A stretch of 17,560 nt of DNA from a virus. Positions 1 through 17,560 of this stretch are shown piece by piece. Each line of letters begins with the position of its first letter. The first letter of the stretch is position 1. The notes below the pieces were generated by a model. That model was not told the DNA's origin. It searched no databases and was given only the letters and a program-made list of their open reading frames with translations. The stretch is taken from the IMG/VR virus record IMGVR_UViG_3300045988_177976; one strand, given 5' to 3'. The position numbers were made by a program, and so were the translations under genes.

Positions 1-66
1 GGTCGTGCGTGCGTGCGGGTGCTTCCCCCCCTGGTGCCGCGTCTTCTTTCATTGTCTTTTTCTTTC

Positions 67-169
67 TTTGTTTTGTTTGTATTTTGTTTTTTGTTGTTTG
101 TGTTTATTGTTTGTTGTTTTGTTTGGTGGTGTTTGGTGGTGTGGTTGGTGGTTGGGTGGTGTTGGTTTT
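67..169 (+). repeat. Near-pure G/T low-complexity tract inside ITR-L, graded from T-rich to G-rich
   Basis: Between C66 and C170 there is no C and only two A (A81, A106). A C/T-rich stretch (41-66) precedes it. The tract runs from T-rich (70-120) to G-rich (121-165). It contains an exact tandem 10-mer gtttggtggt x2 at 121-140 and ten GG dinucleotide tracts within 125-165. Confidence 0.95.
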
Positions 170-194
170 CGGCGTGTCGTGTTCTGGTTTTCGC

Positions 195-200
195 TATAAT
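195..200 (+). promoter_or_regulatory. -10 box (TATAAT) of an inward-firing promoter in ITR-L
   Basis: Exact TATAAT (cgcTATAATtg) lies 34 nt upstream of the ATG at 234. The leader carries a strong SD (aaaggaaggag, 6-nt spacer). No convincing -35 element is present. Confidence 0.55.
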
Positions 201-233
201 TGTTTTATCAACCAAGAAAGGAAGGAGATTACA

Positions 234-569
234 ATGCAGTACACACCTCGTGCCATTGCCACTGTCGCCACCGAGGCCGTGCGGCGTTATATCGACACCG
301 CCCGGGCTTGTGACCGGGAGCTGGTTGCCCGTGTCTGGGCCGACCTTACCCATGAGATCGTCTTCGATCCCTTCACCGGCCGCGTCCGGCGTGTCCAGGA
401 TGCGTCTTCCTGGAATTCCGTGCTCCGCCGGGTCGAGAAGAGGTTCGATTCCTGGCTTTGGCTTCATGGTCTCCATGGGTCTCTTGTCGAGCGTGTGGGT
501 CGTGTTGTTCTGGATTCGTGTCGCTCGTTTGTGGGTCTCGAACGACGCCGTGAACGCGGGGAGGTTTGA
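234..569 (+). CDS. Hypothetical early protein (111 aa), left-end gene
   Basis: The ATG at 234 is preceded by GGAAGGAG with a 6-nt spacer. The longer track ORF from base 9 runs through the G/T tract and is an artefact. I recognise no family. Confidence 0.7.
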   Translation: MQYTPRAIATVATEAVRRYIDTARACDRELVARVWADLTHEIVFDPFTGRVRRVQDASSWNSVLRRVEKRFDSWLWLHGLHGSLVERVGRVVLDSCRSFVGLERRRERGEV

Positions 570-574
570 TTGTC

Positions 575-796
575 ATGTCCGACCTGTCCATGATCATCAT
601 CGCCTTTGTCTCTCTCATCGCTGTCCCCGTCGACCTCGTGGTTTTCGTCCATCTCGTCACCGCCGTGGTGTCGTCTGAATTGAGGTCACAGCGTGGTGGG
701 GAGCCGGACACCTACCGTACGGTCATGTGGTGTATCGTCTGGGTTGCGGTCGCCGTCGTCGCCGTTGTCGTTGTCGGCGTTGCCTCCGCCCTGTGA
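575..796 (+). CDS. Small membrane protein with two predicted TM helices (73 aa)
   Basis: The ATG at 575 sits 11 nt after GGGGAGG (557-563). The TTG at 566 used by the track is too close to the SD. The protein has two hydrophobic stretches (MIIIAFVSLIAVPVDLVVFVHLV and MWCIVWVAVAVVAVVVVGVA). Function unknown. Confidence 0.6.
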   Translation: MSDLSMIIIAFVSLIAVPVDLVVFVHLVTAVVSSELRSQRGGEPDTYRTVMWCIVWVAVAVVAVVVVGVASAL

Positions 797-817
797 GACC
801 TGTCCGTCCCCTTATAT

Positions 818-862
818 GGCAAGTCGCCGGCACCATGGGTGTCATGGTGTCGGCGACTTGCC
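818..862. terminator. 20-bp stem-loop at the convergence point of the plus and minus transcription units (candidate bidirectional terminator)
   Basis: ggcaagtcgccggcaccatg (818-837) pairs with catggtgtcggcgacttgcc (843-862) with one mismatch and a 5-nt loop, ggtgt. It lies 22 nt after the stop at 796 and about 80 nt after the endolysin stop at 942. Neither strand has a clean U-tract after it. Confidence 0.5.
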
Positions 863-941
863 GGGCCCCTATATTACTATAAGGGTTTCTACTTCTCCAA
901 TTTAATAATATCACATGACACTCACGTGTCAAGTTGGCGTG

Positions 942-1700
942 TCATTTCAGCTTCCGGTCGATGCTCTCCAGCAGGTCGAGCGCCCGCGTGACCTTGTCGT
1001 ACATGTTGAGGTTGCGCTTGTCACCCTTGTAGTGGTATTGCCAGATGCCCGCGGGGATGTTCGCGGTGCGTTTGAGCAGTGTCTGCAGGTCGGCGAGGAT
1101 GCCGACGATGCGGTTGTACATGTTGCGCTTGTCCTTGTCCGGGCCGTAACGGTATTCCCAGACGCTTTTCGGATCGACTGCCATATTGGTGCCTCCTGAT
1201 GATTGTCCCAATAGTTGGTTTGCCTTGTTGATGACGTAATTGACGTCAAGTCCGTTGGGTGCGAGGTCGGGGCATGTGGTGTGCGTGGAACCGGGTATCT
1301 CCCGGTGCAGGTACACGTTGCCCCTCACCCCGTCATGCCAGAGCCGTTTCCATCCGTGGCGTCTGGCGATGTCGGCGCAGAGTCTCGCCGAGGCGTCCAT
1401 GCACGCGCGGGTGCACCTGGCCTGCGGCAGTCCGCCCTCATGTTCGATGCTGATGCCGGTCTGGTTGGACAGCCAGTCCGAGTCGCTCCATGGCGTGTCC
1501 GTCTCGCGCACGTACTGGTGGATCGTGCCGTCGGCCCCGATGCCATAGGTGGCTGACGTGCCGCGTGATGCGTCCTGGAACGTGGCGTCCGTGCCGGCGA
1601 GGTACCCCGCCATGATGTGCAGGGTGATGTGGTCGACGTGGTTGCCGCCTCGTCCCGGCGTGCAGTTCGGTGTGCCTATCCATGTGATCCGGTCGCCCAT
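942..1700 (-). CDS. Endolysin: N-acetylmuramoyl-L-alanine amidase (amidase_2/PGRP type) with a C-terminal tandem-repeat domain
   Basis: The N-terminal 165 aa carry amidase_2-like signatures (HITLHIMAG, GISIEHEG, GSTHTTCPD with Zn-ligand His/Cys spacing as in T7 lysozyme). It lies directly downstream of the holin. The C-terminus has two copies of a roughly 33-aa repeat. Confidence 0.88.
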   Translation of the reverse strand: MGDRITWIGTPNCTPGRGGNHVDHITLHIMAGYLAGTDATFQDASRGTSATYGIGADGTIHQYVRETDTPWSDSDWLSNQTGISIEHEGGLPQARCTRACMDASARLCADIARRHGWKRLWHDGVRGNVYLHREIPGSTHTTCPDLAPNGLDVNYVINKANQLLGQSSGGTNMAVDPKSVWEYRYGPDKDKRNMYNRIVGILADLQTLLKRTANIPAGIWQYHYKGDKRNLNMYDKVTRALDLLESIDRKLK

Positions 1701-1706
1701 GTCGTG

Positions 1707-2078
1707 TCATTTCCTTTCTCCGTGTTTGGGCTCCACCTTGGAGAAGATGGCGCCGATGGGTGAGTCCGCCAATCGTGGTTCCACCGCGCATGCGTTCTCG
1801 AGGATGCTGGAGCATTCGATCGCGATGATCGCCGTGGCGCAGATGATGGAGAGGTCGAAGGGGAGGCCGATGCTGCCGCTGATGCCGAGTATGTCGGCGA
1901 CGGAGGCGAGCACGAGGATCAGCATGTACACGCTCTTGTGCAGCAGCCCTTTCTTCATCATGTGCGAGGTGACGGTCTGGGTGTGGATGGCGGCGATGAT
2001 GCCGGTCAGCCAGTCCACGACCATGCATGTGAACGAGAACCCGATGAACCCCATGGCGGTGTGTGACAGTGTGTGCAT
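1707..2078 (-). CDS. Holin (multi-TM, phage_holin_4-like)
   Basis: A 123-aa protein with 3-4 hydrophobic helices and the IECSSILEN motif typical of the holin_4/TcdE-like family. It sits immediately upstream of the endolysin. A GGAGGA sequence lies upstream of the ATG. Confidence 0.8.
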   Translation of the reverse strand: MHTLSHTAMGFIGFSFTCMVVDWLTGIIAAIHTQTVTSHMMKKGLLHKSVYMLILVLASVADILGISGSIGLPFDLSIICATAIIAIECSSILENACAVEPRLADSPIGAIFSKVEPKHGERK

Positions 2079-2079
2079 G

Positions 2080-3138
2080 CTATATCAATCCTCCTATGAG
2101 TTGTTGGAACGATGATTTGGCGGCCACGGTGTCGAAGCGGAGCGCCCCGGCGTCATAGGTGGCGCGAAGCCGGCGGATGAACGGCGTGGATCGGCTGACC
2201 AGCTGCGTGTGCTCGTCCACGGCGTGCGGGTCGAAGGTGACACGCTCGGCGGGGGAGGGGAGGCGTCGTGTGATCCAATGCGAGACCACGCCGTCGGTGT
2301 CGTCCACGTAGAGCCCGAACTCGCCCATGGAGGGCGTGTGGATGCGGATCGACCCCACGGCCGTCGGGGGGATGGGGGAGACGAGCGCTTCGCCGCCGTC
2401 CTGGAACGTGTTGCCGATGGCGTATTGCGCGTAGTCCTCGTCGTATGCGGTGATGAACCGGCCGAAGCGTGTGGAGGCGACCTTGGTGCTGAACCCCCCG
2501 TAGTCGGCGAGCTCGACGCAGAAGAACCCGTCGCAGTAGGTTCTGAACTGCTCCATGCGGGCGAGCTGGCTGGCGACGTCGATGCGGTAGCGTGCGAAAT
2601 ACGGGTTCGCCAGTGTCACCGCGTTGGCGAGCATGACGACGCGCGTCTTGTCCTTCCACCGGTCGATGGTGGAATACAGCTCCGAGAACTGCTTGGCCTC
2701 GTCGGGCAGGAACCTGAGGTTGTTGGGGATGGCCTCATCGAACACCAGCAACGTGACCAGCGGGTAGGGGATGGATTTGATGTTGCCTGCCTGCGAGAGC
2801 GCGCCGAACCAGCAGCAGGTGCCCCACTCCAGCGAATCCCCGCCACTGTCGCGTCGGGCGATCTCGCCCCTGTTGCCGTTGACGCGGAACTCATGATCGG
2901 GGAAGAACTCCCGCAGGTCGTCGAAGAAGGATTCCTTGCCGTGCTGTTCGGTGTCGTAGCGTCGCAGGTAGAAGAACTGCTCGCCGGTCTTCAGGTAGTT
3001 CCTGACCCCCCGGCGTTTGAAGGCGAACGTCTTGCCGAGGCCGCGCGCGCCGACGACCATGTTCCACATCGCGTTCCGTGAGAGGATGCGGTGCGGCGAG
3101 TAATAGTCGTCGGTGGTGAGCACGCTGTTTTCGGTCAT
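2080..3138 (-). CDS. DNA encapsidation ATPase (phi29 gp16-like)
   Basis: Walker A GARGLGKT and Walker B LLVFDE are present. Size (352 aa) and overall pattern fit podovirus gp16-type packaging ATPases. Confidence 0.88.
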   Translation of the reverse strand: MTENSVLTTDDYYSPHRILSRNAMWNMVVGARGLGKTFAFKRRGVRNYLKTGEQFFYLRRYDTEQHGKESFFDDLREFFPDHEFRVNGNRGEIARRDSGGDSLEWGTCCWFGALSQAGNIKSIPYPLVTLLVFDEAIPNNLRFLPDEAKQFSELYSTIDRWKDKTRVVMLANAVTLANPYFARYRIDVASQLARMEQFRTYCDGFFCVELADYGGFSTKVASTRFGRFITAYDEDYAQYAIGNTFQDGGEALVSPIPPTAVGSIRIHTPSMGEFGLYVDDTDGVVSHWITRRLPSPAERVTFDPHAVDEHTQLVSRSTPFIRRLRATYDAGALRFDTVAAKSSFQQLIGGLI

Positions 3139-3150
3139 ATGTCCATTGTA

Positions 3151-4455
3151 TTACACGTACCGGCGTATCTCCCACATGACCGCCCCCTGCATCTGGGTGG
3201 CGGCGTCCTTGTAGACCGGCCCCATGCCGGGGCCGCCGTGGCCGATGCATCGCGGCCCGCCGGTCATCATCTCCACATGGTCGTAGGAGGGGTTGCGCCG
3301 GCTCCACGCGAGCAGCAGCAGGTCGCCGGCATGGCTTCCGGCGATCGCCTCCGCCACGCCGTCGCGGTCGGAATGGTACACCTGCGTGCCCTTGCCGACC
3401 ATGGCTCCGGTCCATGTGCCGACATCGATACCCAATGAGTCCTGGTAGGCGCGCCAGATGGTGCTCGAGCAGTCCCCGTAGCCGGTGTTGAGCGGGTCGA
3501 GGCGTCCCCCGGCCTGCGAGTAGGCGAACCGCCCCTCCCATGATTCGTATAGCTTCAGCACCTTGTCGCCCTTGGAGTCGCCGGGCTCGGGTGTGGGGTC
3601 GACCGGCTCGGCCGGTTTCTGCCCGCCCTCGATGGGTTTGCCCGCCTCGCCGGCGTACAGCCATGTCTGCGAGACGGTCTTGCGGTATTGGCGCACCTTG
3701 TTGCCCTCGTGGAGGTAGAGGCAGTCGCCCTGTGCCTGTATCCACGACTTGGCGGCGGGTGTGGGCTGTTGGGCGGGGGGCTTGTTGCCGCCCTCGTTCG
3801 GTTTGACCACCTGCGTGTCGGACACCTGTCCGAAGTCCGGTGGCGCCGACCGTTCGTCCCAGTCCCTGAGCATGTCGTAGGCGGTGGTGTACCGGTTGGC
3901 GTATTGTCCCAGCACGCCGTTGTTGAGGCAGGTGGTGTGCAGGAGCTGCAGTCCTGCGGTGGCGGAGCATCCGCCGATGACCTGCAACGCGTATTTGGGC
4001 CCCTGGTGCCACATGACCATGAAGTAGATGCGCTCCGCGATGTTGTCCGCGGGGAACCCGTACTGGTCGCACACCTGCTCGTACCCGGCGCAGTCCTCGG
4101 TGAACTGGTGCTGCTGCACCGCATGCTGCTCGTCCCGGCCGGCCCATGCGATGAACGCGTTGCCCTCGGCGGCGGTGATGTAGTAGTGCGGCCAGTCGAG
4201 GTCGTTCGCCTCCACGTGCGCGGCCAGTGACGGTGCCGCCGTCTTGAACGCCGCCCACCCGTCGGGATCCTCGGTGCGCCCGCGGTTCAGCAGCCCGTGG
4301 GCGCGTGCCCCGTACCATTGCATCATGCCGAGCGTGATGGGGTCATGGTAGTTGACAGCCGTCCATGTGTGGTTCGATTCGACCTGTCCGATGACGTACA
4401 TGGCGTACATGGTCTGATTCACGGTGAAGCCCATGCCCCCTATTATAGCGGGCAT
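3151..4455 (-). CDS. Tail-associated peptidoglycan hydrolase: N-terminal lytic transglycosylase-like domain plus C-terminal NlpC/P60-type cysteine peptidase (functional analogue of phi29 gp13)
   Basis: The N-terminus has IGQVESN...TLGMMQW (an SLT-like E-S / GxMQ pattern). The C-terminus has GYGDCSSTIWRAY (catalytic Cys) and YDHVEMM (His). The start is uncertain, either ATG 4455 or ATG 4434. The track ORF from 4584 overlaps the upstream fibre gene and is rejected. Confidence 0.82.
   Translation of the reverse strand: MPAIIGGMGFTVNQTMYAMYVIGQVESNHTWTAVNYHDPITLGMMQWYGARAHGLLNRGRTEDPDGWAAFKTAAPSLAAHVEANDLDWPHYYITAAEGNAFIAWAGRDEQHAVQQHQFTEDCAGYEQVCDQYGFPADNIAERIYFMVMWHQGPKYALQVIGGCSATAGLQLLHTTCLNNGVLGQYANRYTTAYDMLRDWDERSAPPDFGQVSDTQVVKPNEGGNKPPAQQPTPAAKSWIQAQGDCLYLHEGNKVRQYRKTVSQTWLYAGEAGKPIEGGQKPAEPVDPTPEPGDSKGDKVLKLYESWEGRFAYSQAGGRLDPLNTGYGDCSSTIWRAYQDSLGIDVGTWTGAMVGKGTQVYHSDRDGVAEAIAGSHAGDLLLLAWSRRNPSYDHVEMMTGGPRCIGHGGPGMGPVYKDAATQMQGAVMWEIRRYV
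4442..4447 (-). promoter_or_regulatory. Exact TATAAT 7 nt upstream of the in-frame ATG at 4434 (possible internal promoter giving a leaderless start)
   Basis: The minus strand reads ATGcccgcTATAATagggggcATG. The context cgcTATAAT matches the ITR -10 box. Confidence 0.3.
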
Positions 4456-4483
4456 GGGCCCCGTCGGGTGTCTGTGGCGTCGG

Positions 4484-5443
4484 TCAGTTGCCGGACGACC
4501 AGTTCTCCCCGGCGGCACGGGCGCCACTTGCGAAGGTTCGTGTCGTGGTGGCGTCGGCGAGTTTGATGAACGAGATGGCCGCATGGTTGATGCGTCCGGT
4601 GATCGGGTGTGCGGCGCCCATGTGTGCGGCGTGCAGGCGCAGGCGGATGTGCTGCAGCCTCTCCACCGATTCGACGATGGAGAGCGCGGCCCCCTGGACG
4701 GCGCCGGACAGTACGGCGTCGTTGTTGGATTCCTTGACGAAATACGTGTCGACCTGTCCGAGGACGGTCGGTGCCGAGCCGGCCATGTCGGAGATCTCGC
4801 ATCGGATCGCCGTCTTGTATTCCTCGCCGCCCGCCGCGACGTTGATGAGCCTGAGTTCGAAGTTGACCTGGTAGACGCCGGGGGTGAGGGCGATGTCGGC
4901 CTTGTTGTCCCCCGACAGGGTCGCCCATGCCGGGTCGAGCCCCGTGGGGGCGTCGAACTGGACTTCCTTGTAGTCGGTGGGGGCGGTCATGGTGAAGTCA
5001 CGTTCGGTGCCGGTCTTCCATGCGGCCGCCTGTCCGACGAGGTGGTTGGCGAAATGCTCGTCCGAATATGATTTCGTGTACACGCTGTCGCTGTCGGCCT
5101 TGCCGGCCACCTGGGTGTCCAGTGTGGACAGGTGGCTGTCGGTGGTGGTCTTGTGTTGGTGGAATTCATCGGCGTTCGCGGTGATCCGGCTTTCGTTGGC
5201 CTCGGCCTTCGCCTTCGCGCCGTCGGCCGTGGCCTTCACCTGTGCGATCGCCGTGGCGTTCGTGTCGGCGGTGTTCTGCGCGTTCGTCGCGGCCGTGTGT
5301 GCGTCGGCGGCCGCGTTCGCGTTGCATTGCATGCCGCGGTCGATCTTGAGCATGTCGCCGTTGTAGTCGCCGCGCCATGTGGGCTTGTCGGCGTCGGCGA
5401 ACTGGGACAGGTTGTAATTGGTGGTCTTGATGGTGCTTGACAT
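4484..5443 (-). CDS. Tail fibre / receptor-binding protein B (319 aa)
   Basis: The ATG at 5443 is preceded by AAAAGGAGAAG. Its N-terminus (MSSTIKTTNYNLSQFADADKPTWRGDYNGDMLKIDRG) is paralogous to that of the upstream gene. An Ala/Asn/Thr-rich helical stalk follows, then a beta-rich C-terminal head (PGVYQVNFELRL). Confidence 0.7.
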   Translation of the reverse strand: MSSTIKTTNYNLSQFADADKPTWRGDYNGDMLKIDRGMQCNANAAADAHTAATNAQNTADTNATAIAQVKATADGAKAKAEANESRITANADEFHQHKTTTDSHLSTLDTQVAGKADSDSVYTKSYSDEHFANHLVGQAAAWKTGTERDFTMTAPTDYKEVQFDAPTGLDPAWATLSGDNKADIALTPGVYQVNFELRLINVAAGGEEYKTAIRCEISDMAGSAPTVLGQVDTYFVKESNNDAVLSGAVQGAALSIVESVERLQHIRLRLHAAHMGAAHPITGRINHAAISFIKLADATTTRTFASGARAAGENWSSGN

Positions 5444-5463
5444 GTCTTCTCCTTTTGGCTGGC

Positions 5464-6845: not shown

Positions 6846-6846
6846 G

Positions 6847-8630: not shown

Positions 8631-8663
8631 GGGACTCCTTCACGGTGACGGTGTATGTCCATT

Positions 8664-10874: not shown

Positions 10875-10900
10875 GCCCGCACCTTTCCTTCCAAGACAGA

Positions 10901-10926
10901 ACAGGGAGGCCGTTGGGCCTCCCTGT
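10901..10926 (-). terminator. Stem-loop after the capsid gene (partial terminator/attenuator)
   Basis: acagggaggcc (10901-10911) pairs with ggcctccctgt (10916-10926), giving an 11-bp GC-rich stem and a 4-nt loop. On the minus strand it is followed by TCTGTCTT. It sits 24 nt after the capsid gene stop. Confidence 0.5.
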
Positions 10927-10949
10927 CATTGTATCGCATCCGATGTGGT

Positions 10950-12674: not shown

Positions 12675-12677
12675 AGT

Positions 12678-12968
12678 TTACTCCATTTCATCGAACAGGG
12701 CGGCCACGGCGTCGTCCACCGAGGTGTACTGGCGTTCGGGCTCGGGGTCGTGTACTGGCTCATTGAATATCGTATCATGCGCCTTGAGTTCGGCGATGGC
12801 CTTCTCAAGGGTGTCGAGCCGCGAGGTGATGGCGGCCAGATCCACGGACTGCCGCGCCGGTGGCTGCACCTGTGGCTGCGTTTGCTCGGGGGTTGGATCC
12901 TGTGGTGTCTCCTGTGCGTCGAGCACGTCGACATCCTCGTGGACGGTGTCTTCCGGGGTTTCCTGCAT
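12678..12968 (-). CDS. Putative scaffolding protein (96 aa, acidic, helical)
   Basis: It is immediately upstream of the capsid gene (3-nt gap, with GGAG inside its own 3' end). It is highly acidic with a predicted coiled-coil core (LAAITSRLDTLEKAIAELKA). Assigned by position and composition only. Confidence 0.6.
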   Translation of the reverse strand: MQETPEDTVHEDVDVLDAQETPQDPTPEQTQPQVQPPARQSVDLAAITSRLDTLEKAIAELKAHDTIFNEPVHDPEPERQYTSVDDAVAALFDEME

Positions 12969-13006
12969 GGCATGCCTTTCGTAGGACGGTGGATTGGTTC
13001 CCCTCC

Positions 13007-13012
13007 ATTATA
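13007..13012 (-). promoter_or_regulatory. -10 box (TATAAT) upstream of the structural (late) gene block
   Basis: The minus strand reads ttgcccTTATAATggagggg, 38 nt upstream of the scaffold ATG. It lies in the largest internal non-coding gap. No good -35 is present at 17 nt. Confidence 0.45.
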
Positions 13013-13113
13013 AGGGCAAGGAAACGGCCGCCGTTGCAATCACGCGCAGGCGGCCACTGATGCCATGAGAGCCCCGATGGTGTCGGTAGCAGGTCGAAGC
13101 CGGTCGATGCGTC

Positions 13114-13154
13114 CATGCCGCGCCGGAATCTCTTCCGTTGGCGTGTGCGGCATG
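13114..13154 (-). other. Imperfect 41-nt stem-loop in the polymerase-scaffold intergenic region (function unknown)
   Basis: catgccgc (13114-13121) pairs with gcggcatg (13147-13154). Inside are gcc/ggc and ggaa/ttcc helices, a 3-nt bulge and a tctc loop, about 15 bp in total. No U-tract follows. Confidence 0.4.
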
Positions 13155-13177
13155 CTCTGCAGTCCGACGACGCGGGC

Positions 13178-14641
13178 TCAGGACAATCCCGAGTATACAC
13201 GACCGTACCTGCCCGACGCAAACTCGTCCCACGTCGGCACCTCGTCCTCGACATAGCCGGAATGGCACCACAGGTTCCCGCCCTGCACGGTCTCGCCGAG
13301 GTACAGGTTCGACGCCAGCAGGTTCACCCGGCGGAATTCGGCCTCCACCTTGTATTCGCCCTGGCCCCGGCCCATGGGCAGGATGTCGTGCAGCCGTCCG
13401 GCATCCAGCCCGCGCACCATGAACCCGTCCGTGTTGCAGTAGAGCACCTCGCCCCCGGCGCCGCGCACCCGCGCGATGTCCCTGAGGAGGCGCAGCCTGG
13501 CCTTGCCCCATACCGCCGCCGCCAACGGGGTGTACCGCACGCTCGTGGACACGCCGCGGCCGGCGCCGTCGCGGCGGACGGTGCGGAACATGACACGCCC
13601 CCGGTCGTCAAGGCAGGGCACCACCGATACGTCCGCGTTCCGGAGGTGCGCCTGCGCGAACTTTCCGATGAACGCGTTGAGCAGCGTCTTGTACACCCCT
13701 TTGCCCGAGCGGGGGGCCATGTCCTTGAGCCAGCCGAGTTTCGCCGTCGAGGAGGCGAAGAAGGGGGTGCATGTGTCGAACGCGACGCCGCCGTGCACGA
13801 TGAGCTCGGCGTCGCAGGACAGGCGCACCGCCTCGATGTCGTCGCTGGTGAGCGTCATGGGGGCGAAGCCGTTGTCGCATGCGATCGGCGTCTCCCTGCC
13901 CCGCCTGCCGTCCGCCCGTCTGGTGAGCCAATGGGGCATGCCCGGTCGTTCCACGCCCATGACGTCCACCTCGAACACGCCCCACTGGTCGTCGCGCATG
14001 TCCTCCGGGGAGTCCACCTCGGTCGGCGTGCCGTAGGGGAGCCGGCAGGATGCCAGTATGCTCGGATACATGCTGTTCACGTCGAGGTCGATGACGTCAT
14101 GGTATACGCCTGGCCTGTCGAGCCATACCAGTCCGCCCCGGCATGCCTGCGACACCAGCTGCCCGGCGAACCCGCCGGGGGCCGGATAGGTTCGCGCGAA
14201 CCGCTCCATGTGCTTTCGTGGTATGGTCTGCGCGACGGCGGCGGAGCCGGGGGTGGGGGATGTGACCTGCAGGCCGTGGAGCGTGCGCGCGGCCTCGACC
14301 GCATTCCCCCCGTACTCGCAGTATCTGGAGATGTCGAGGAACCGTATGCGGTTCCTCCCGTCGAGCCTGACGGCCAGGGACAGGACGGTGTGGTCGGCCG
14401 AGATGCATCCCGTGCATTCGCCCAGACGCAACCGGGAGGCGTCCGGGTTCCACGGATGCCGGGCGAGCATCATGCCGAGGATGTCCAGGAGGTCGGGCTG
14501 TCCGCCGCACCATACCGTGGCCGGGCAGTCGTCGTAGGGCAATGCCCGGATGAGTTCGCGCATGGAGGACACGTGCGTGCGTTCCCCCTGCAGCCATATG
14601 AGCTCCCCGTCATGGTAGAGCACGGTCTGTGTCGTCGTCAT
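13178..14641 (-). CDS. Protein-primed family-B DNA polymerase (phi29 gp2-like), compact at 487 aa
   Basis: Motif A is DLDVNSMYPS (14060-14089). Motif B is KTLLNAFIGKF. Motif C is YCNTDG (13424-13441). A candidate ExoI is YHDGEL near the N-terminus. The genome context (ITRs, adjacent basic protein) fits protein priming. Confidence 0.93.
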   Translation of the reverse strand: MTTTQTVLYHDGELIWLQGERTHVSSMRELIRALPYDDCPATVWCGGQPDLLDILGMMLARHPWNPDASRLRLGECTGCISADHTVLSLAVRLDGRNRIRFLDISRYCEYGGNAVEAARTLHGLQVTSPTPGSAAVAQTIPRKHMERFARTYPAPGGFAGQLVSQACRGGLVWLDRPGVYHDVIDLDVNSMYPSILASCRLPYGTPTEVDSPEDMRDDQWGVFEVDVMGVERPGMPHWLTRRADGRRGRETPIACDNGFAPMTLTSDDIEAVRLSCDAELIVHGGVAFDTCTPFFASSTAKLGWLKDMAPRSGKGVYKTLLNAFIGKFAQAHLRNADVSVVPCLDDRGRVMFRTVRRDGAGRGVSTSVRYTPLAAAVWGKARLRLLRDIARVRGAGGEVLYCNTDGFMVRGLDAGRLHDILPMGRGQGEYKVEAEFRRVNLLASNLYLGETVQGGNLWCHSGYVEDEVPTWDEFASGRYGRVYSGLS

Positions 14642-14674
14642 GGCAATCCCCTTGTTCCTTTGGATGTGTTCCCG

Positions 14675-15838
14675 CTATCCCAGTCCGGCAAGTGACAGCA
14701 TCTTCTCGGCCGCATGGATGGAGGCGTCGCCTATGAGCTGGGAGAGCACCCCCATGGAGGCGATGCCGTCCGCCCCGCTGGCGCGGCGGGATTTCGGGGG
14801 TGAGTCTATCGCCGACATGACATCGGCGACGAATTGGGTGTTGCGGTGCAGGTAGTCGCGCTGCGCGGCGGTGAGGTTCCCGTACCACTGCCGGTATCCC
14901 AGCAGGTCGAGCGCCCGGAGCAGCGCCCGGGTCTGTTCCGGGGACATGCCGGGTGCGCGCATCCGTTCCACCGTCTTCGCGTCCCTCATGGCGCGCCGCT
15001 CCGATTTCGACAGGCTCCCGGGGCCTTTGCGCCCGCGTTTGCGCAGGGCCTTCTCGGATCGGAATATCCTGCGCGCCTGCTCCTCGCCGTACCCCTCCTG
15101 TGCGAGCTGGTGCATCCGCGCCTGCTGTGATGCGCCGCCCACGCCGGAGACGGACATGCCGGCCTTGCGGGCCATGCTCGCCAGGTAGATGTTGTACGTG
15201 GATTCGCTCATGGAGCCGGATTCCATGCGGCGCCTCGCGGCGGTGATGCCCTTCGCGGCGCTGCGCAGGGAGCTTTCCTCGGCGCTGGGGCCGAACGCCA
15301 CGGCATCGTCCTGTCCCGTGCCGAGGATCTTCGACGCCACCATGGCGTCGATGGCGTTGACGTTCATCCACCTCCCGTTCGCGGCGTCGTTGACACGCTG
15401 CCGGGCGGCGAGGATCCTGTTGTTGGCGTTGCGGGCGAGACGGGCCTGCCTTGGCGGCATGGACTGGATCACCGACTCGTCGGTGAGTTGTCTGGAGGCC
15501 ATGTACATGGTGTTCCGGTTCACCCTGGGGGAGGGGGTGAGCATGGCGCGCACGCGCCTGTCATGCTCCGCCTTGCGTTCGGCGCGCCGGGACGCCATGG
15601 CGTCCGCGCGGCGCTCGGACGCGCGGATGACGGCCCGTTCCAGGTCGGCGCGCTGGGATGGTGTGAGCATGGCGATGTTGTTGAGGGAGAGATGGCTGAC
15701 GTCGATATGGTGTTCCAGGTCATGCACGAGCTGTCGGTGCACCTGTGCACTGCGCGCCCTGACTTGGGCCTTCCTTGCCTCGAGTTCCCTGCGGCGACGT
15801 GCCGCACGGCGTTTCTTGCCGGATGACGGCTGTTTCAT
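14675..15838 (-). CDS. Putative terminal protein (387 aa, very basic), assigned by synteny only
   Basis: It is directly upstream of the polymerase and co-oriented with it (33-nt gap), as gene 3 precedes gene 2 in phi29. It is Arg/Lys-rich and predicted helical, with an AAGGGGG RBS. I see no sequence similarity to the phi29 terminal protein. Confidence 0.5.
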   Translation of the reverse strand: MKQPSSGKKRRAARRRRELEARKAQVRARSAQVHRQLVHDLEHHIDVSHLSLNNIAMLTPSQRADLERAVIRASERRADAMASRRAERKAEHDRRVRAMLTPSPRVNRNTMYMASRQLTDESVIQSMPPRQARLARNANNRILAARQRVNDAANGRWMNVNAIDAMVASKILGTGQDDAVAFGPSAEESSLRSAAKGITAARRRMESGSMSESTYNIYLASMARKAGMSVSGVGGASQQARMHQLAQEGYGEEQARRIFRSEKALRKRGRKGPGSLSKSERRAMRDAKTVERMRAPGMSPEQTRALLRALDLLGYRQWYGNLTAAQRDYLHRNTQFVADVMSAIDSPPKSRRASGADGIASMGVLSQLIGDASIHAAEKMLSLAGLG

Positions 15839-15852
15839 GGGTGCCCCCTTGG

Positions 15853-15890
15853 TAAAAATATAGGGAGGCAGATGCGGTCTGCCTCCCTAT
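15853..15890 (-). terminator. Intrinsic terminator (13-bp stem plus U-tract) between the early genes and the terminal-protein gene
   Basis: atagggaggcaga (15860-15872) pairs with tctgcctccctat (15878-15890) around a 5-nt loop. On the minus strand it is followed by ATTTTTACC (A-run 15854-15858 on the plus strand). Confidence 0.65.
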
Positions 15891-15937
15891 CGGATGAACC
15901 TAGGTAAGAACAGGGGAAAGAACCCTAGGTGGTTCCC

Positions 15938-15943
15938 ATTATA
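15938..15943 (-). promoter_or_regulatory. -10 box (TATAAT) upstream of the terminator/terminal-protein leader
   Basis: The minus strand reads acgggggTATAATgggaacc, in the 126-bp gap between the 138-aa gene and the terminal-protein gene. No -35 is present. Confidence 0.4.
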
Positions 15944-15964
15944 CCCCCGTTCCGTCCGGTCGGG

Positions 15965-16381
15965 CTACTTCGTGGGGAGGACCTCCATCGCGTAGTAGCG
16001 GTTGCCCTTGCGGGAGCGGCGCTCGTTGACCACGATGGTCTTCGGGCTCCTCCACGTGTCCGGGGTGCCGAAGATGCCGAACATCGTGTTCACCGACGAG
16101 GCGATGGAATCGGAGGTCGCCGAGTAGGCGCTGTTGTCCGCGGTGACGAAGATCGTGCGGATGGCGTCGCGGACTTCCCCGGTGTTGTCGTCGGTCATGG
16201 CGACCTTCTGGGACACCACGCTCCTGATCTCGAGGGGTTCGCCGAGGTGTTCGTTCAGCGGTTCCGCGTTGTTGATGGCGGTGTACAGGGCGACCTGCCC
16301 CTCTTCGGTCGTGGTGTCGATGAACGCCCGGATGGAGCCGGTGTTCTGCGGTTCCTGTGCGAGTGCGATTTCGTTCGTCAT
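15965..16381 (-). CDS. Early protein (138 aa), possibly a phage ssDNA-binding protein
   Basis: The ATG at 16381 follows AGAAAGGTGATC, an extended anti-SD match. The coding call is solid. The SSB idea rests on its position next to the terminal-protein and polymerase genes (like phi29 gene 5) and a loose resemblance to lactococcal-phage-type SSBs, recalled from memory. Confidence 0.6.
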   Translation of the reverse strand: MTNEIALAQEPQNTGSIRAFIDTTTEEGQVALYTAINNAEPLNEHLGEPLEIRSVVSQKVAMTDDNTGEVRDAIRTIFVTADNSAYSATSDSIASSVNTMFGIFGTPDTWRSPKTIVVNERRSRKGNRYYAMEVLPTK

Positions 16382-16434
16382 GATGATCACCTTTCTGTTT
16401 CTTTGGTTTCCGTCTTCTCTTGAAGACATTTTCT

Positions 16435-16462
16435 ATATTACTGATTTTTTGGATGAAGTCAA
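16435..16462 (-). promoter_or_regulatory. Near-consensus sigma-70/sigA-type promoter (TTGACT, 16 nt, TAATAT)
   Basis: The minus strand reads TTGACTtcatccaaaaaatcagTAATAT, with -35 at 16457-16462 and -10 at 16435-16440. It is about 50 nt upstream of the ATG at 16381. Confidence 0.7.
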
Positions 16463-16475
16463 GTTCGGCGTGTCG

Positions 16476-16766
16476 TTATTTTGCGTTCAACTCATGCACC
16501 TCCGTCCTCGAATAACGGCGGGCAAGCTCCACGAATTGCCCCACCTCCATGATGCCGGTCTCCTTGTAGACGGAGATCGTCTGGGGAACGCAACGCCTGT
16601 TGATGCGACGCGCCTCCTCGAAATACGCGCCGACCGAGTTGCGACGGCCGTCCACGCGCACATCCTCCTTGTCGATGCTGCCGTCCGGCCGCACCACGAT
16701 CGCATGGACGATGGCGTAATACACGGAACGCACGATGGGTTGGCGCTTCTGCAATGGAGCTACCAT
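16476..16766 (-). CDS. Hypothetical early protein (96 aa, basic)
   Basis: AAGGAAAGGGG lies 6 nt upstream of the ATG. It occupies the position of a phi29 gene 6-like DNA-binding protein, but I recognise no motif. Confidence 0.7.
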   Translation of the reverse strand: MVAPLQKRQPIVRSVYYAIVHAIVVRPDGSIDKEDVRVDGRRNSVGAYFEEARRINRRCVPQTISVYKETGIMEVGQFVELARRYSRTEVHELNAK

Positions 16767-16801
16767 AACAAACCCCTTTCCTTAGATTAATGGACAATAC
16801 C

Positions 16802-16830
16802 ATTATAAACCAAATACAGCAGTCTTGCAA
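16802..16830 (-). promoter_or_regulatory. Near-consensus promoter (TTGCAA, 17 nt, TATAAT)
   Basis: The minus strand reads TTGCAAgactgctgtatttggttTATAAT. The -10 box overlaps the TAA stop (16803-16805) of the right-end gene. It is 35 nt upstream of the ATG at 16766. Confidence 0.7.
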
Positions 16831-17327
16831 GACGGCGAGTCGCACTCCATGGACATCCAATCCTCCGCCGAAAACCGACGCTCATCAATACCCGCCATGC
16901 AAAACGCCATACGAGACGCCACACGGGTCTCGGCACCACAGAGATTCAACATGCACCGCACATCAAACTCACTGCCGCCCACCGCAATGACACACGCCAC
17001 CCAACCCATCAAAGCCATGCGATCCAGGGAGCCATCAAGCAGCATGACACCATCCATGTGATCACACACCTGGCGGACAGTGGGATAGGGAGGCAGCACG
17101 GCGCAGATATCCACAGCGGCAAGCACCGCATACCGCACAAACTCGCCACCACCATACCCCTTGTCAAGCACCGCCTTGGAGATCAGCGACGTGGCCTGAC
17201 AGGCTAGTTGGAAGTCGCCACCGGAATCAAAACGCTTCAGATCCAGACGACGCATATAGCCCTTCATGCACCGGCGAATGGCCGGGGAGTCGAAAATGCC
17301 ATCATCAAACGGAACAAGACTCGCCAT
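16803..17327 (-). CDS. Hypothetical early protein (174 aa, Cys-rich), right-end gene
   Basis: It starts at the ITR-encoded ATG (17325-17327) with the same SD and leader as the left-end gene. The track ORF from 17552 is an artefact of the G/T tract. I recognise no family. Confidence 0.7.
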   Translation of the reverse strand: MASLVPFDDGIFDSPAIRRCMKGYMRRLDLKRFDSGGDFQLACQATSLISKAVLDKGYGGGEFVRYAVLAAVDICAVLPPYPTVRQVCDHMDGVMLLDGSLDRMALMGWVACVIAVGGSEFDVRCMLNLCGAETRVASRMAFCMAGIDERRFSAEDWMSMECDSPSCKTAVFGL

Positions 17328-17360
17328 TGTAATCTCCTTCCTTTCTTGGTTGATAAAACA

Positions 17361-17366
17361 ATTATA
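17361..17366 (-). promoter_or_regulatory. -10 box (TATAAT) of an inward-firing promoter in ITR-R
   Basis: Mirror copy of 195-200. It has the same leader, SD and ATG, here serving the gene 16803..17327(-). Confidence 0.55.
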
Positions 17367-17391
17367 GCGAAAACCAGAACACGACACGCCG

Positions 17392-17494
17392 AAAACCAAC
17401 ACCACCCAACCACCAACCACACCACCAAACACCACCAAACAAAACAACAAACAATAAACACAAACAACAAAAAACAAAATACAAACAAAACAAA
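17392..17494 (-). repeat. Mirror copy of the G/T tract inside ITR-R (G/T-rich on the minus strand)
   Basis: Reverse complement of 67-169. On the plus strand it reads as an A/C-only tract (accaccaaac x2 and so on). Confidence 0.95.
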
Positions 17495-17560
17495 GAAAGA
17501 AAAAGACAATGAAAGAAGACGCGGCACCAGGGGGGGAAGCACCCGCACGCACGCACGACC

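What the first reader, a model, noticed from the sequence alone, without database searches (positions are those of the whole stretch)
1..17560. The window appears to be a complete linear genome of a protein-primed, phi29-like podovirus in a GC-rich host
Perfect 236-bp ITRs abut both window edges. A family-B polymerase with the phi29-type motifs DVNSxYPx / KxxLNxxxGKF / YCxTDx is present. A full phi29-order morphogenesis module follows (scaffold, capsid, tail knob, portal, lower collar, appendages, tail lysin, gp16-type ATPase, holin, endolysin). No integrase is present. Described phi29-like viruses come mostly from low-GC Firmicutes. From memory only, the closest analogue in size and host type is Actinomyces phage Av-1. 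This would therefore belong to a sparsely sampled actinobacterial lineage.
Basis: partly seen in the sequence, partly recalled or inferred. Interest (0 to 1): 0.7.

Follow-up and report, generated by a model that had tools for sequence, protein, structure and literature searches.

The report
Gut Bifidobacterium phi29-like phage genome
The window is the whole small linear genome of an uncultured phi29-type virus that most likely infects gut Bifidobacterium; this kind of virus is known and common in metagenomes, but it carries a conserved ~165-nt structured RNA that may be the first packaging RNA found outside Bacillus phages.

Summary
The 236-nt ITRs are perfect and abut both edges. Nineteen ORFs reproduce the phi29 replication, morphogenesis and lysis order, and there is no integrase. 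The novelty framing does not hold. The closest described viruses are Bifidobacterium phages BD811P1-3 and BP1, not Av-1: same gene order, capsid 55-58% identical, but only 12-22% of bases shared. More than 170 related contigs exist in IMG/VR and gut metagenomes, all under 20 kb. The window's own 17,560-nt contig and 96-97% identical strains are already public. It is a new, uncultured member, probably a new genus, of a known kind. Completeness and protein priming are inferred. The polymerase folds like phi29's. Relatives show physical ends. The terminal-protein candidate has no detectable homologue. Two things go beyond the finding. First, between the polymerase and scaffold genes lies an RNA gene with its own -10 box and terminator. 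It is present in every full-length relative and shows strong covariation. Its layout matches phi29 prohead RNA: a closing helix, a three-way junction and a bulge-loop contact. Second, all Bifidobacterium phi29-like polymerases lack the three exonuclease motifs.

The parts
1..236 (.). Left inverted terminal repeat, the presumed replication origin and early promoter. The top strand of positions 1-190 has only 3 A. (CGTG)x3 lies at positions 4-15.
   Evidence: Perfect 236-nt inverted repeat. Composition. ITRs are also present in BP1 and L074.
17325..17560 (.). Right inverted terminal repeat.
   Evidence: Other assemblies of the same species break inside it at their k-mer length.
170..236 (+). Inner ITR module: conserved CGGCGTGTCG (170-179), -10 TATAAT (195-200), RBS AAGGAAGGAG and ATG (234-236). 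The mirror copy lies at 17325-17391 on the minus strand, so both terminal genes share one promoter, RBS and start codon.
   Evidence: Sequence. The module is conserved in window-type and BD811-type relatives.
234..569 (+). Left-end ORF, 111 aa, function unknown.
   Evidence: ORF. The exact protein is called on 4 public contigs. No family hit.
575..796 (+). Small ORF, 73 aa, with two hydrophobic segments and a GGAGG RBS.
818..862 (.). 20-bp hairpin in the convergent gap. Inferred to be a bidirectional terminator.
   Evidence: Inverted repeat I12, 95% complementary. Sequence.
942..1700 (-). Endolysin, an N-acetylmuramoyl-L-alanine amidase.
   Evidence: Pfam Amidase_2, 1e-19. Cellular relatives are almost all in Bifidobacterium genomes.
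1707..2078 (-). Holin.
   Evidence: Pfam Phage_holin_4_1, 3e-15.
2080..3138 (-). gp16-type DNA encapsidation ATPase, 352 aa.
   Evidence: Pfam Podovirus_Gp16, 7e-43, covering profile positions 6-320 of 331.
3151..4455 (-). Tail-associated lysin, 434 aa.
   Evidence: 55% identical to the BD811P1 same-position gene. BP1's homologue is annotated as a Peptidase C51 domain protein. No Pfam or PHROG hit here.
4484..6845 (-). Three ORFs (4484-5443, 5464-6189, 6186-6845). By position they are presumed tail appendages or receptor-binding proteins. The first two share an N-terminal motif.
   Evidence: ORFs and gene calls. No family hits. No homologue in BD811P1/BP1 beyond about 37 N-terminal residues.
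6847..7674 (-). Lower collar (adaptor).
   Evidence: PHROG 3225 / 5472, 4e-29.
7671..8630 (-). Portal / upper collar connector. Its N-terminus is basic (MSRRTKSNRAARA).
   Evidence: Pfam Phage_connector, 3e-40. N-terminus compared.
8664..10874 (-). Tail knob (gp9-like).
   Evidence: Pfam Caud_tail_N and phi29_gp9_C.
10950..12674 (-). Major capsid protein.
   Evidence: Pfam Phi29_MCP, 2e-56. 55-58% identical to BD811P1-3 and BP1.
12678..12968 (-). Scaffold-position protein, 96 aa.
   Evidence: Assigned by position. Only weak similarity to the BD811P1/BP1 same-position gene.
13007..13012 (-). Late promoter -10 box (TATAAT).
   Evidence: Nearly invariant in 66 relatives. Coordinates.
13022..13186 (-). 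Conserved structured RNA gene, a candidate prohead RNA.
- Closing helix: 13186-13182 / 13064-13061; 13179-13174 / 13074-13069; 13167-13164 and 13160-13157 / 13092-13089 and 13086-13083.
- Arm 1: 13154-13147 / 13121-13114, with a 5' bulge at 13146-13138 and a GAGA-capped hairpin at 13137-13124.
- Arm 2: hairpin at 13107-13094.
- Terminator: 13055-13049 / 13032-13026.
   Evidence: Found by nhmmer in 151 of 163 loci. The covariance model finds it in the remaining full-length loci. A model trained without window-type sequences finds it as the only hit in the window, E = 7e-6. Covariation. Coordinates.
13192..13197 (-). -10-like hexamer TATACT, 5 nt upstream of the RNA's first helix. It lies inside the last polymerase codons.
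   Evidence: BD811-type genomes have TGCTATAAT at the same spacing.
13178..14641 (-). Family-B DNA polymerase of the protein-primed type, 487 aa. It lacks the ExoI, ExoII and ExoIII motifs and its motif C is YCNTDG.
   Evidence: Pfam DNA_pol_B_2. Profile against phi29 polymerase, E = 6e-50 over phi29 residues 176-501. AF2 model pLDDT 79. Foldseek to 2PYJ/2EX3, TM 0.71-0.74. Motif alignments.
14675..15838 (-). Terminal-protein candidate, 387 aa. It is assigned by position, has a basic N-terminus and is predicted to be all-helical.
   Evidence: It lies directly upstream of the polymerase gene, where TP genes are annotated in GA-1, Cp-1, the phi29-like phage and Curtobacterium phage. No homology was found.
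15860..15943 (-). A TATAAT box (15943-15938) followed by a 13-bp hairpin and T-run (15890-15860), in the gap between the SSB and TP genes.
15965..16381 (-). Single-stranded DNA-binding protein, 138 aa. An alternative start lies at 16429.
   Evidence: Pfam Phi29_Phage_SSB, 1e-18. Gene call.
16476..16766 (-). Early ORF, 96 aa, function unknown.
   Evidence: ORF and gene calls. No family hit.
16803..17327 (-). Right-end early ORF, 174 aa. Its ATG is the last triplet of the ITR.
   Evidence: 31-35% identical to BD811P1/BP1 genes.

Best explanation
The window is the complete, or complete to within a few terminal bases, linear dsDNA genome of an uncultured virulent phi29-like podovirus from the human gut. 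Its host is most likely a Bifidobacterium species. It belongs to the clade that contains Bifidobacterium phages BD811P1-3 and BP1 but forms a separate, roughly genus-level lineage.

How it most likely works, with each step marked shown or inferred:
- Replication (inferred). Each 236-nt ITR is an origin. A terminal protein, probably the 387-aa product of 14675-15838, primes synthesis by the phi29-type family-B polymerase from both ends. That polymerase has lost the exonuclease motifs (shown by alignment), so replication is probably not proofread (inferred).
- Early transcription (sequence shown, function inferred). The inner ITR carries a promoter, RBS and ATG. The same module therefore drives an inward-facing early gene at each end.
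- Right arm (shown by family hits). It transcribes the SSB, TP-candidate and polymerase genes.
- Small RNA (structure shown by covariation, expression inferred). Immediately after the polymerase stop, a -10 box and a terminator bracket a structured RNA of about 165 nt.
- Late genes (sequence and family hits shown, promoter function inferred). A TATAAT late promoter then drives scaffold, capsid, knob, portal, collar, receptor-binding proteins, tail lysin, gp16 ATPase, holin and endolysin.
- Packaging (inferred). The gp16-type ATPase docks on the connector. The conserved RNA is the best candidate for the bridging prohead RNA.
For: Identity:
- phi29-type families for 8 proteins plus the lower collar.
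- Polymerase fold equals that of phi29 polymerase, including the TPR1/TPR2 regions.
- Gene order and orientation identical to BD811P1 and BP1.

Linear, stand-alone genome:
- Perfect 236-nt ITRs.
- Other assemblies of the same species break exactly inside the ITR at k = 55, 127 or 31. This is what a true two-copy inverted repeat produces.
- No contig among the hundreds in the family exceeds 19.8 kb or carries host flank.
- About 20 relatives start at the same (GTGG)GAGGGG end. In the BP1 record an Illumina adapter is joined directly to that end.
- ITRs are also seen in BP1 and L074.
- No integrase.

Host:
- All isolates of the clade infect Bifidobacterium (PMC12694917).
- The closest cellular relatives of the endolysin are in Bifidobacterium: B. 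animalis 63%, B. pseudolongum 56% over the full length, B. bombi 68% over the catalytic domain.

Rank:
- 96-97% of bases shared with L016, L097 and L099.
- 68-74% shared with L007, L008 and L011.
- 12-22% shared with BD811P1 and BP1.

RNA: see the full report.
Against: - No reads were available, so hard coverage stops and the absence of junction reads are untested.
- Only this one contig reaches the outer 100 nt of the ITR, so a few terminal bases could be missing.
- The terminal protein is assigned by position only. No sequence, profile or fold similarity was found to phi29 TP or even to the same-position proteins of BD811P1/BP1.
- The host species is unresolved. At 63.3% GC the window is 8-13 points above the BD811-type relatives.
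- Loss of exonuclease activity is inferred from motifs. The window's own enzyme keeps D11-x-E13 and D50, which could be remnants of ExoI and ExoII.
Confidence: 0.85

Rival explanations
1. The conserved RNA at 13022-13186 is not a packaging RNA. It would instead be a regulatory or stabilising element of the early-to-late junction, for example a structured 3' UTR plus terminator of the polymerase operon, or a small RNA that controls the switch to late transcription.
For: - It lies exactly between the early and late blocks and ends in the terminator that precedes the late -10 box.
- Rfam's pRNA model does not match.
- The models R1 and R2 find nothing in GA-1, where a pRNA is annotated.
- In the window itself the bulge-loop contact is only 3 G-C pairs.
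- The single-sequence fold z-scores are unremarkable, -0.5 and -1.35.
Against: - A plain terminator or UTR does not need a three-way junction, a 5' bulge that covaries with a distal hairpin loop, or its own -10 box placed 5-7 nt before the first helix.
- The phage has a full-length gp16-type ATPase and a connector with a basic N-terminus, the two partners that pRNA bridges in phi29 (PMC12084888).
- Known pRNAs share only about 12% sequence identity (PMC5066667), so the lack of an Rfam hit is expected.
Confidence: 0.4
2. The ITRs and the apparent completeness are assembly artefacts. The real molecule would be circular, circularly permuted or concatemeric, or the contig would be a fragment.
For: - Only one assembly shows the full 236-nt repeat.
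- BD811P1 as deposited shows no ITR.
- The Eggerthella phage LE1-1 record is marked circular.
Against: - Each ITR copy continues into different unique sequence.
- Independent assemblers break at the inner ITR boundary with k-mer-length overlaps.
- Relatives show a common physical terminus, including an adapter-ligated end in an isolate.
- Contig lengths cluster at 17-19.8 kb.
- The gene set is complete and syntenic with isolates.
Confidence: 0.05
3. The host is another high-GC gut actinobacterium, for example a member of the Coriobacteriia or Actinomyces, rather than Bifidobacterium.
For: - At 63.3% GC the window is well above the 50-55% of BD811-type phages.
- The receptor-binding ORFs have no counterpart in BD811P1 or BP1.
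- A phi29-like phage of Eggerthella exists.
Against: - The endolysin's cellular relatives are almost exclusively in Bifidobacterium isolate genomes. The full-length match, including the C-terminal wall-binding part, is to B. pseudolongum, which I recall as a roughly 63% GC species.
- The Eggerthella phage polymerase is of the canonical exonuclease-positive type, unlike this one.
- The exonuclease-negative short polymerase is shared with all Bifidobacterium phages examined.
Confidence: 0.15
4. The element is a linear plasmid or a defective or integrated element rather than an infectious phage.
For: Protein-primed polymerases and ITRs also occur on linear plasmids. This rests on general knowledge, not on a test made here.
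Against: - A full virion module and a lysis cassette are present.
- There are no plasmid or integration genes.
- There is no host flank on any contig.
- Cultured relatives form podovirus particles (PMC12694917).
Confidence: 0.03

Closest known systems
Bifidobacterium phages BD811P1, BD811P2, BD811P3 (B. dentium) and BP1 (B. pseudocatenulatum): an undefined genus related to Salasmaviridae
   Same: - Identical gene order and orientation.
- Protein identities: capsid 55-58%, portal 54-55%, ATPase 50%, SSB 51-53%, lower collar 51-53%, tail lysin up to 55%.
- The same short, exonuclease-motif-less polymerase type with motif C NTDG.
- The same RNA element between the polymerase and scaffold genes.
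- A long T-rich ITR carrying a promoter that ends at the terminal genes' ATG.
   Different: - Only 12-22% of bases are shared.
- The polymerase is 25-27% identical.
- The TP-position protein is unrelated.
- The receptor-binding genes are different.
- GC is 63% against 50-55%.
- There are fewer small early genes (19 ORFs against 22-26).
Bacillus phage phi29 and Salasmaviridae
   Same: - Capsid, connector, lower collar, knob, gp16 ATPase and SSB families.
- Polymerase fold.
- TP-then-polymerase order.
- A linear genome with ITRs.
- A small RNA gene downstream of the polymerase gene on the same strand, as annotated in GA-1.
   Different: - All but two genes lie on one strand.
- The ITR is 236 nt against 6-7 nt.
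- The polymerase lacks ExoI, ExoII and ExoIII and about 40 residues of the thumb.
- No head-fibre gene or p4-like regulator was recognised.
- The RNA has no detectable similarity to Rfam pRNA.
Badaztecvirus (Bifidobacterium asteroides phages, honeybee gut)
   Same: - Capsid 38% identical.
- A short polymerase (469 aa) without Exo motifs.
- A 178-nt gap after the polymerase gene.
   Different: - Motif C is the canonical YADTDS.
- The RNA models R1 and R2 do not match its gap.
   Same: A small phi29-like genome (17,171 bp) in an actinobacterial host (PMC11476376).
   Different: It is not among the 25 best capsid matches. Bifidobacterium, Curtobacterium and Arthrobacter phages all rank above it. 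The review places it in a different cluster from BD811P1 (PMC11476376).
Streptococcus phage Cp-1
   Same: Protein-primed and phi29-like. I recall its ITR as also being 236 bp; this was not checked here.
   Different: It has a canonical exonuclease-positive polymerase of 568 aa and a low-GC host.

Membership tests
phi29-like protein-primed podoviruses | Small (about 15-30 kb) linear dsDNA genome with inverted terminal repeats | tested here: met
   17,560 nt with perfect 236-nt ITRs. Linearity is inferred from assemblies and relatives.
phi29-like protein-primed podoviruses | Family-B polymerase of the protein-primed type: polymerisation motifs A, B and C plus the TPR1/TPR2 insertions | tested here: met
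   PF03175. The profile aligns to phi29 residues 176-501, which cover TPR1, fingers and TPR2, at E = 6e-50. Foldseek TM 0.71-0.74. Motif C is YCNTDG rather than YCDTDS.
phi29-like protein-primed podoviruses | 3'-5' exonuclease motifs ExoI (DxE), ExoII (Nx3FD) and ExoIII (Yx3D) in the polymerase | tested here: not met
   There is no invariant acidic residue in the first 130 residues. The ExoIII segment is deleted and ExoI/ExoII are not conserved in any Bifidobacterium phage polymerase. Five canonical enzymes have all three motifs.
phi29-like protein-primed podoviruses | Terminal-protein gene next to the polymerase gene | tested here: inconclusive
   A 387-aa basic, helical ORF sits in the right place. 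It has no Pfam, PHROG, PDB-sequence, profile or fold match.
phi29-like protein-primed podoviruses | [quoted passage not shown] | not testable with these tools
   This needs virion DNA.
phi29-like protein-primed podoviruses | phi29-type capsid, connector, lower collar and tail knob | tested here: met
   PF25622, PF05352, PF16838 / PF20934 and PHROG 3225 / 5472.
phi29-like protein-primed podoviruses | gp16-type encapsidation ATPase without a terminase nuclease | tested here: met
   PF05894, 7e-43, over almost the whole 352-aa protein.
phi29-like protein-primed podoviruses | Prohead RNA | tested here: inconclusive
   No Rfam RF00044 match. A conserved, covarying RNA with pRNA-like topology is present, but its function is untested.
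BD811P1/BP1-like Bifidobacterium podophage clade | Shared gene order, with core structural proteins at least about 50% identical | tested here: met
BD811P1/BP1-like Bifidobacterium podophage clade | Same genus, taken here as about 70% nucleotide similarity over the genome | tested here: not met
   12-22% of bases shared, from an approximate blastn-based measure.
BD811P1/BP1-like Bifidobacterium podophage clade | Conserved RNA element between the polymerase and scaffold genes | tested here: met
   Model R2, trained without window-type sequences, hits 13020-13188(-) at E = 7e-6.
Salasmaviridae (ICTV family) | Formal family demarcation by shared orthologues or a proteomic tree | not tested
   No such tool was available here. 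PMC12694917 calls the BP1 cluster an undefined genus related to Salasmaviridae.

The most novel reading that the evidence does not exclude
The roughly 165-nt RNA encoded at 13022-13186(-) is a prohead (packaging) RNA, which would make it the first identified outside the Bacillus phi29 group. It would show that RNA-bridged packaging motors are ancestral to a much wider set of phi29-like phages. These same Bifidobacterium phages would also replicate with a protein-primed polymerase that has lost proofreading.
Probability: 0.45. Interest if true: 0.75.

Novelty: new member of a known kind. Interest (0 to 1): 0.45.

Why it matters
As a genome it is ordinary. It adds an uncultured, probably genus-level lineage to a family of small gut phages that is already well sampled in metagenomes and has four cultured members.

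Its value lies in what the comparison exposed. A 2024 review states that prohead RNA is known only in phi29 and related Bacillus phages (PMC11476376). How the other phi29-like phages dock a gp16-type ATPase on the connector is not addressed there. This clade offers a concrete candidate RNA with defined ends and more than 60 non-redundant variants for covariation. It also has cultured phages (BD811P1-3, BP1) in which the idea can be tested directly.

The exonuclease-motif-less polymerases are a natural experiment on protein-primed replication without proofreading. They are also about 90 residues smaller than the phi29 enzyme, which is widely used for DNA amplification.

Tried and rejected
- Megablast of the whole window against 50,697 phage records found no match.
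- Rfam at E up to 5 gave only three chance-level hits, none in the RNA region. No tRNAs were found.
- Terminal protein: Pfam, PHROGs, a word-indexed homologue search, an hhalign comparison with the BD811P1/BP1 same-position proteins (probability 0.2%), a PDB profile search and Foldseek on a pLDDT-69 model all found nothing.
- I tried to confirm the exact termini from other assemblies. All of them stop inside the ITR at their k-mer length, so they confirm the inner boundary only.
- The first genome scan with the endolysin found nothing. The profile-based second scan resolved the genus only.
- A CRISPR spacer search was not feasible, because collection scans need one exact pattern.
- My first RNA model contained a local hairpin (GUCGA/UCGAC). 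I replaced it with a long-range helix (UCG-ACU-GGG / CCC-UA-CGA) that covaries much better.
- Single-sequence folding energies are not significant.
- The sigma-70 scan's best hit (932-905, minus strand) lies in the convergent terminator gap. I did not pursue it.
- The models R1 and R2 found no counterpart in BadAztec1, Curtobacterium, Eggerthella, phi29-like, GA-1 or Cp-1 loci.

Full report
OBSERVATION

The two ends of the window are a perfect 236-nt inverted repeat, 1-236 and 17325-17560. Identity stops at position 237. A repeat of this length cannot arise by chance.

Nineteen ORFs cover 93% of the sequence. Two small ORFs read rightwards from the left ITR. All the others read leftwards from the right ITR. 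Pfam and PHROGs identify the following:
- amidase endolysin, holin, gp16-type encapsidation ATPase;
- connector, lower collar, gp9-type tail knob, phi29-type major capsid protein;
- family-B DNA polymerase (organellar/viral type) and phi29-type SSB.

No ORF matches an integrase or recombinase. There are no tRNAs.

WHAT IT IS RELATED TO

No deposited phage shares nucleotide similarity detectable by megablast. At the protein level the best capsid matches are Bifidobacterium phages BD811P1-3 (host B. dentium) and BP1 (host B. pseudocatenulatum), at 55-58% identity. Next come the honeybee Bifidobacterium phages (Badaztecvirus, 38%) and Curtobacterium and Arthrobacter phages (33%). Actinomyces phage Av-1 is not among the best 25.

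Gene order and orientation are identical to BD811P1 and BP1. Conservation is uneven:
- ATPase, portal, lower collar, SSB and tail lysin are 50-55% identical.
- The knob is 36-38% identical.
- The polymerase is only 25-27% identical.
- The protein upstream of the polymerase and the three ORFs at 4484-6845 have no counterpart, apart from a 37-residue N-terminal stretch in one.

An approximate intergenomic measure gives these shares of identical bases:
- 96-97% with L016, L097 and L099 (same species);
- 92-93% with L005, L017 and L098;
- 68-74% with L007, L008 and L011, which include pig-gut contigs;
- 12-22% with BD811P1 and BP1.

The window therefore represents an uncultured lineage of roughly genus rank, sister to the cultured phages.

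HOW WELL SAMPLED IT IS

The lineage is far from sparse.
- A capsid profile retrieved more than 110 IMG/VR contigs (80 kept) and 66 metagenome contigs, nearly all from human gut and every one under 19.8 kb.
- The window's capsid cluster at 90% identity has 262 member sequences, on contigs of 17.1-19.5 kb.
- The window's own 17,560-nt contig is already held by NCBI, JGI, Logan and ENA, with its proteins labelled hypothetical.
- Only four isolates of human-gut Bifidobacterium podophages are published (PMC12694917).
- A 2024 review already lists 2,115 phi29-related sequences with GC up to 65.9% (PMC11476376).

IS IT A COMPLETE LINEAR GENOME?

I had no reads, so the evidence is indirect, but it is consistent.
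1. Each ITR copy runs into different unique sequence.
2. Independent assemblies of the same species end inside the ITR, with overlaps equal to their k-mer. The SPAdes contig of 17,198 nt equals window 182-17379, a 55-nt overlap. MEGAHIT contigs have 124 nt before the ATG. Logan unitigs have about 30-50 nt. This is the behaviour of a true two-copy inverted repeat.
3. No contig carries host sequence or exceeds 20 kb.
4. About twenty BD811-type contigs begin within a few bases of the same sequence, (GTGG)GAGGGGTGTGG. In the BP1 GenBank record an Illumina adapter is ligated directly to GTGGGAGGTGCATGG. That marks a physical DNA end in an isolate.
5. BP1 has an ITR of at least 148 nt as deposited; the left arm's extra terminal sequence suggests about 230 nt. 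The full contig L074 has a 137-nt ITR.

Only this window reaches the outermost 100 nt for its own species, so a few terminal bases may be missing.

ITR ANATOMY

The ITR ends exactly on the ATG of the inward-facing gene on each side. Its inner 67 nt contain a conserved CGGCGTGTCG element, a TATAAT box and an AAGGAAGGAG RBS. This module is conserved in window-type and BD811-type relatives. One promoter-RBS-ATG cassette therefore serves both terminal genes.

The outer part is extremely strand-asymmetric. There are 3 A among the first 190 bases of the 5'-ended strand. Relatives have equally A-poor, T-rich tracts of different sequence.

REPLICATION PROTEINS

A polymerase profile matches phi29 DNA polymerase at E = 6e-50, but only over phi29 residues 176-501: palm, TPR1, fingers and TPR2. 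An AlphaFold model (pLDDT 79) superposes on phi29 polymerase over nearly its whole length, at TM 0.71-0.74. The N-terminal domain therefore keeps an exonuclease-like fold.

Its catalytic signature is gone. Five canonical enzymes all carry DFETT, FHNLKFDG and Yx3D: a phi29-like phage, GA-1, Cp-1, a Curtobacterium phage and an Eggerthella phage, all 562-578 aa. All four Bifidobacterium-phage types differ in the same way (BadAztec1 469 aa, BP1 471, BD811P1 483, window 487):
- they lack these motifs;
- they have the ExoIII segment deleted;
- they have a thumb about 40 residues shorter;
- they replace the Lys of the KxY motif.

The human-gut enzymes also have Asn for the first Asp of motif C. The window's enzyme retains D11-x-E13 and D50 at ExoI- and ExoII-like positions. 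These residues are not conserved in its 65-68% identical relatives. I infer a proofreading-deficient enzyme, at roughly 0.65 confidence.

The 387-aa ORF directly upstream is the terminal-protein candidate. The reasons are its position, its Arg/Lys-rich N-terminus and its all-helical prediction. TP genes sit in that position in the phi29-like phage, GA-1, Cp-1 and Curtobacterium records. No method found any homology for it. An invariant, low-confidence loop at residues 346-366 contains S346, S354 and S361, about 33 residues from the C-terminus. From memory, the phi29 priming Ser232 lies 34 residues from its C-terminus. I offer this loop as a speculative priming loop.

A CONSERVED RNA GENE

Every relative has a gap of 209-230 nt between the polymerase and scaffold genes.
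- A sequence profile of the gap finds it in 151 of 163 loci.
- A covariance model finds it in the six full-length loci that the profile missed.
- A second model, trained only on BD811-type sequences, finds the window's copy as the single hit in the window, at 13020-13188(-), 32.7 bits, E = 7e-6.

I tested a structure on 66 copies that are less than 92% identical to each other. It is derived partly from RNAalifold, partly from the window's own minimum-free-energy fold and partly from inspection. The results:
- 88.9% of cells are paired, against 37-46% when the 3' partners are slid by 1-3 columns.
- 39 of 51 pairs show changes on both sides, against 21.9 +/- 2.2 in column shuffles (0 of 500 reach the observed value).

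The shuffle control ignores phylogeny, and the structure was partly derived from these sequences. Even so, the margin is large. The compensations between the two subclades are also independent events: GAGCG/CGCUC against GAGCC/GGCUC, and UCG-ACU-GGG/CCC-UA-CGA against UCGG-ACU-GCAG/CUGC-UA-CCGA.

The architecture has four parts:
- A long closing helix in three segments leads to a three-way junction.
- One arm carries a 5' bulge, (G/A)CCAC, and a GAGA/GAAA-containing loop.
- The second arm is a hairpin whose loop, GUGG(C/U), is complementary to the bulge. This contact is 92% paired. All six sequences with A in the bulge have U in the loop.
- A GC-rich terminator with an invariant CGUGAUUG loop follows.

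Directly upstream, BD811-type genomes have an extended -10 box, TGCTATAAT, whose TAA is the polymerase stop codon. It lies 5-7 nt before the first helix. The window type has TATACT at the same spacing, inside unrelated codons. The element therefore looks like an independent gene for a transcript of about 165 nt.

The order of elements is that of phi29 prohead RNA domain I: closing helix, three-way junction, bulged arm, then a hairpin whose loop pairs with the bulge. In phi29 the CE bulge and the D loop pair between molecules to build the ring (PMC5066667).

Four further points fit a packaging RNA:
- Its length is close to the 174-nt phi29 pRNA.
- It lies downstream of the polymerase gene on the same strand, as in the GA-1 record.
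- A complete gp16-type ATPase is present.
- The connector N-termini have basic residues at positions 3-4 (MSRRTK, MGRRNN, MGKRNK). The indispensable pRNA-binding RKR motif occupies residues 3-5 in phi29 gp10 (PMC12084888).

Four points count against it:
- Rfam's pRNA model does not match.
- The models find nothing in other actinobacterial phi29-like phages or in GA-1.
- In the window itself the bulge-loop contact is reduced to three G-C pairs.
- The element could equally be a regulatory RNA of the early-to-late junction.

I put the pRNA reading at about 0.45. The existence of a conserved structured RNA I put at about 0.9.

HOST

All cultured relatives infect Bifidobacterium. The endolysin's nearest named cellular homologues are from B. 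animalis (63%) and B. adolescentis (59%). A genome scan returned almost only Bifidobacterium isolate genomes. The best full-length match is B. pseudolongum at 56%, and the catalytic domain reaches 68% in B. bombi. The window's 63.3% GC and its distinct receptor-binding genes suggest a higher-GC species than B. dentium or B. pseudocatenulatum. The species is unresolved.

VERDICT

The expectation of a rare lineage is not. The genome itself is a new member of a known kind and is already public as anonymous contigs. The interest lies in the candidate packaging RNA and in the exonuclease-motif-less polymerases. Both are clade-wide features, and both can be tested in the cultured relatives.

Noticed in passing
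window 13022-13197 (minus strand): A conserved RNA gene of about 165 nt with its own -10 box and terminator lies between the polymerase and scaffold genes. It forms a three-way junction with a covarying bulge-loop contact, and it is present in every full-length relative. It is a candidate prohead RNA.
   Followed up: yes
window 13178-14641 (minus strand); L001, L002, L170: All Bifidobacterium phi29-like polymerases (469-487 aa) lack the ExoI, ExoII and ExoIII motifs and have a shortened thumb. The human-gut ones have motif C as Y(C/A)NTDG and an Asn or Arg in place of the Lys of KxY. Canonical relatives (562-578 aa) keep all of these.
   Followed up: yes
window 1-190 and 17371-17560: The 5'-ended strand of each ITR has only 3 A in 190 nt (100 T, 62 G, 25 C). 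The extreme end reads GGT(CGTG)x3CGGG. Relatives have equally A-poor tracts of different sequence. The function is unknown; origin unwinding or a protein-binding array are possibilities.
   Followed up: partly
window 170-236 and 17325-17391: The ITR ends exactly on the ATG of both inward-facing terminal genes. The two unrelated genes therefore share one promoter, RBS and start codon. The module, including CGGCGTGTCG, is conserved across the clade.
   Followed up: partly
L002 (PQ571273.1, phage BP1) 1-379: The left end of the deposited BP1 record contains Illumina adapter sequence (...ACACTCTTTCCCTACACGACGCTCTTCCGATCT), preceded by sequence that does not continue the genome and may be chimeric. 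The true genome end starts right after the adapter, at GTGGGAGG. The right end as deposited lacks about 80 nt of the ITR.
   Followed up: partly
window 15860-15943 (minus strand): Between the SSB and TP genes a TATAAT box is followed by a strong terminator-like hairpin (13 bp plus a T-run) before the TP start. This may be an attenuated leader for the TP-polymerase operon.
   Followed up: no
window 797-941: The convergent gap is 145 nt, against 50-58 nt in BD811P1 and BP1. It holds two hairpins (818-862, 865-884) and a near-consensus sigma-70-like promoter on the minus strand (932-905, 11 of 12 matches with TG) that points at them.
   Followed up: no
window 14675-15838 (minus strand), residues 346-366: The TP candidate has an invariant, predicted-disordered loop (DSPPKSxRASGADGIASM) about 33 residues from its C-terminus, with three invariant serines. 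It may be the priming loop.
   Followed up: no
window 4484-6189 (minus strand): Two adjacent ORFs share an N-terminal motif (xLSQ(F/Y)xDxDxPxxxxDYxxDMxxIDxG) but differ downstream. They look like two receptor-binding proteins on a common anchor and are unrelated to the BD811P1/BP1 counterparts.
   Followed up: no
L023, L029, L033, L038 and other BD811-type loci, first ~250 nt: Many BD811-type genomes carry palindromes (TTGACACTGTGTCAA and GTTACGGTAACGTAACCGTAAC) between the ITR element and the first gene. They look like operators. The window lacks them.
   Followed up: no
window 7671-8630 (minus strand), residues 1-13: The portal N-terminus, MSRRTKSNRAARA, resembles the basic N-terminus of the phi29-type connector (MARKRNSYRS). 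The RKR motif there binds pRNA in phi29.
   Followed up: partly
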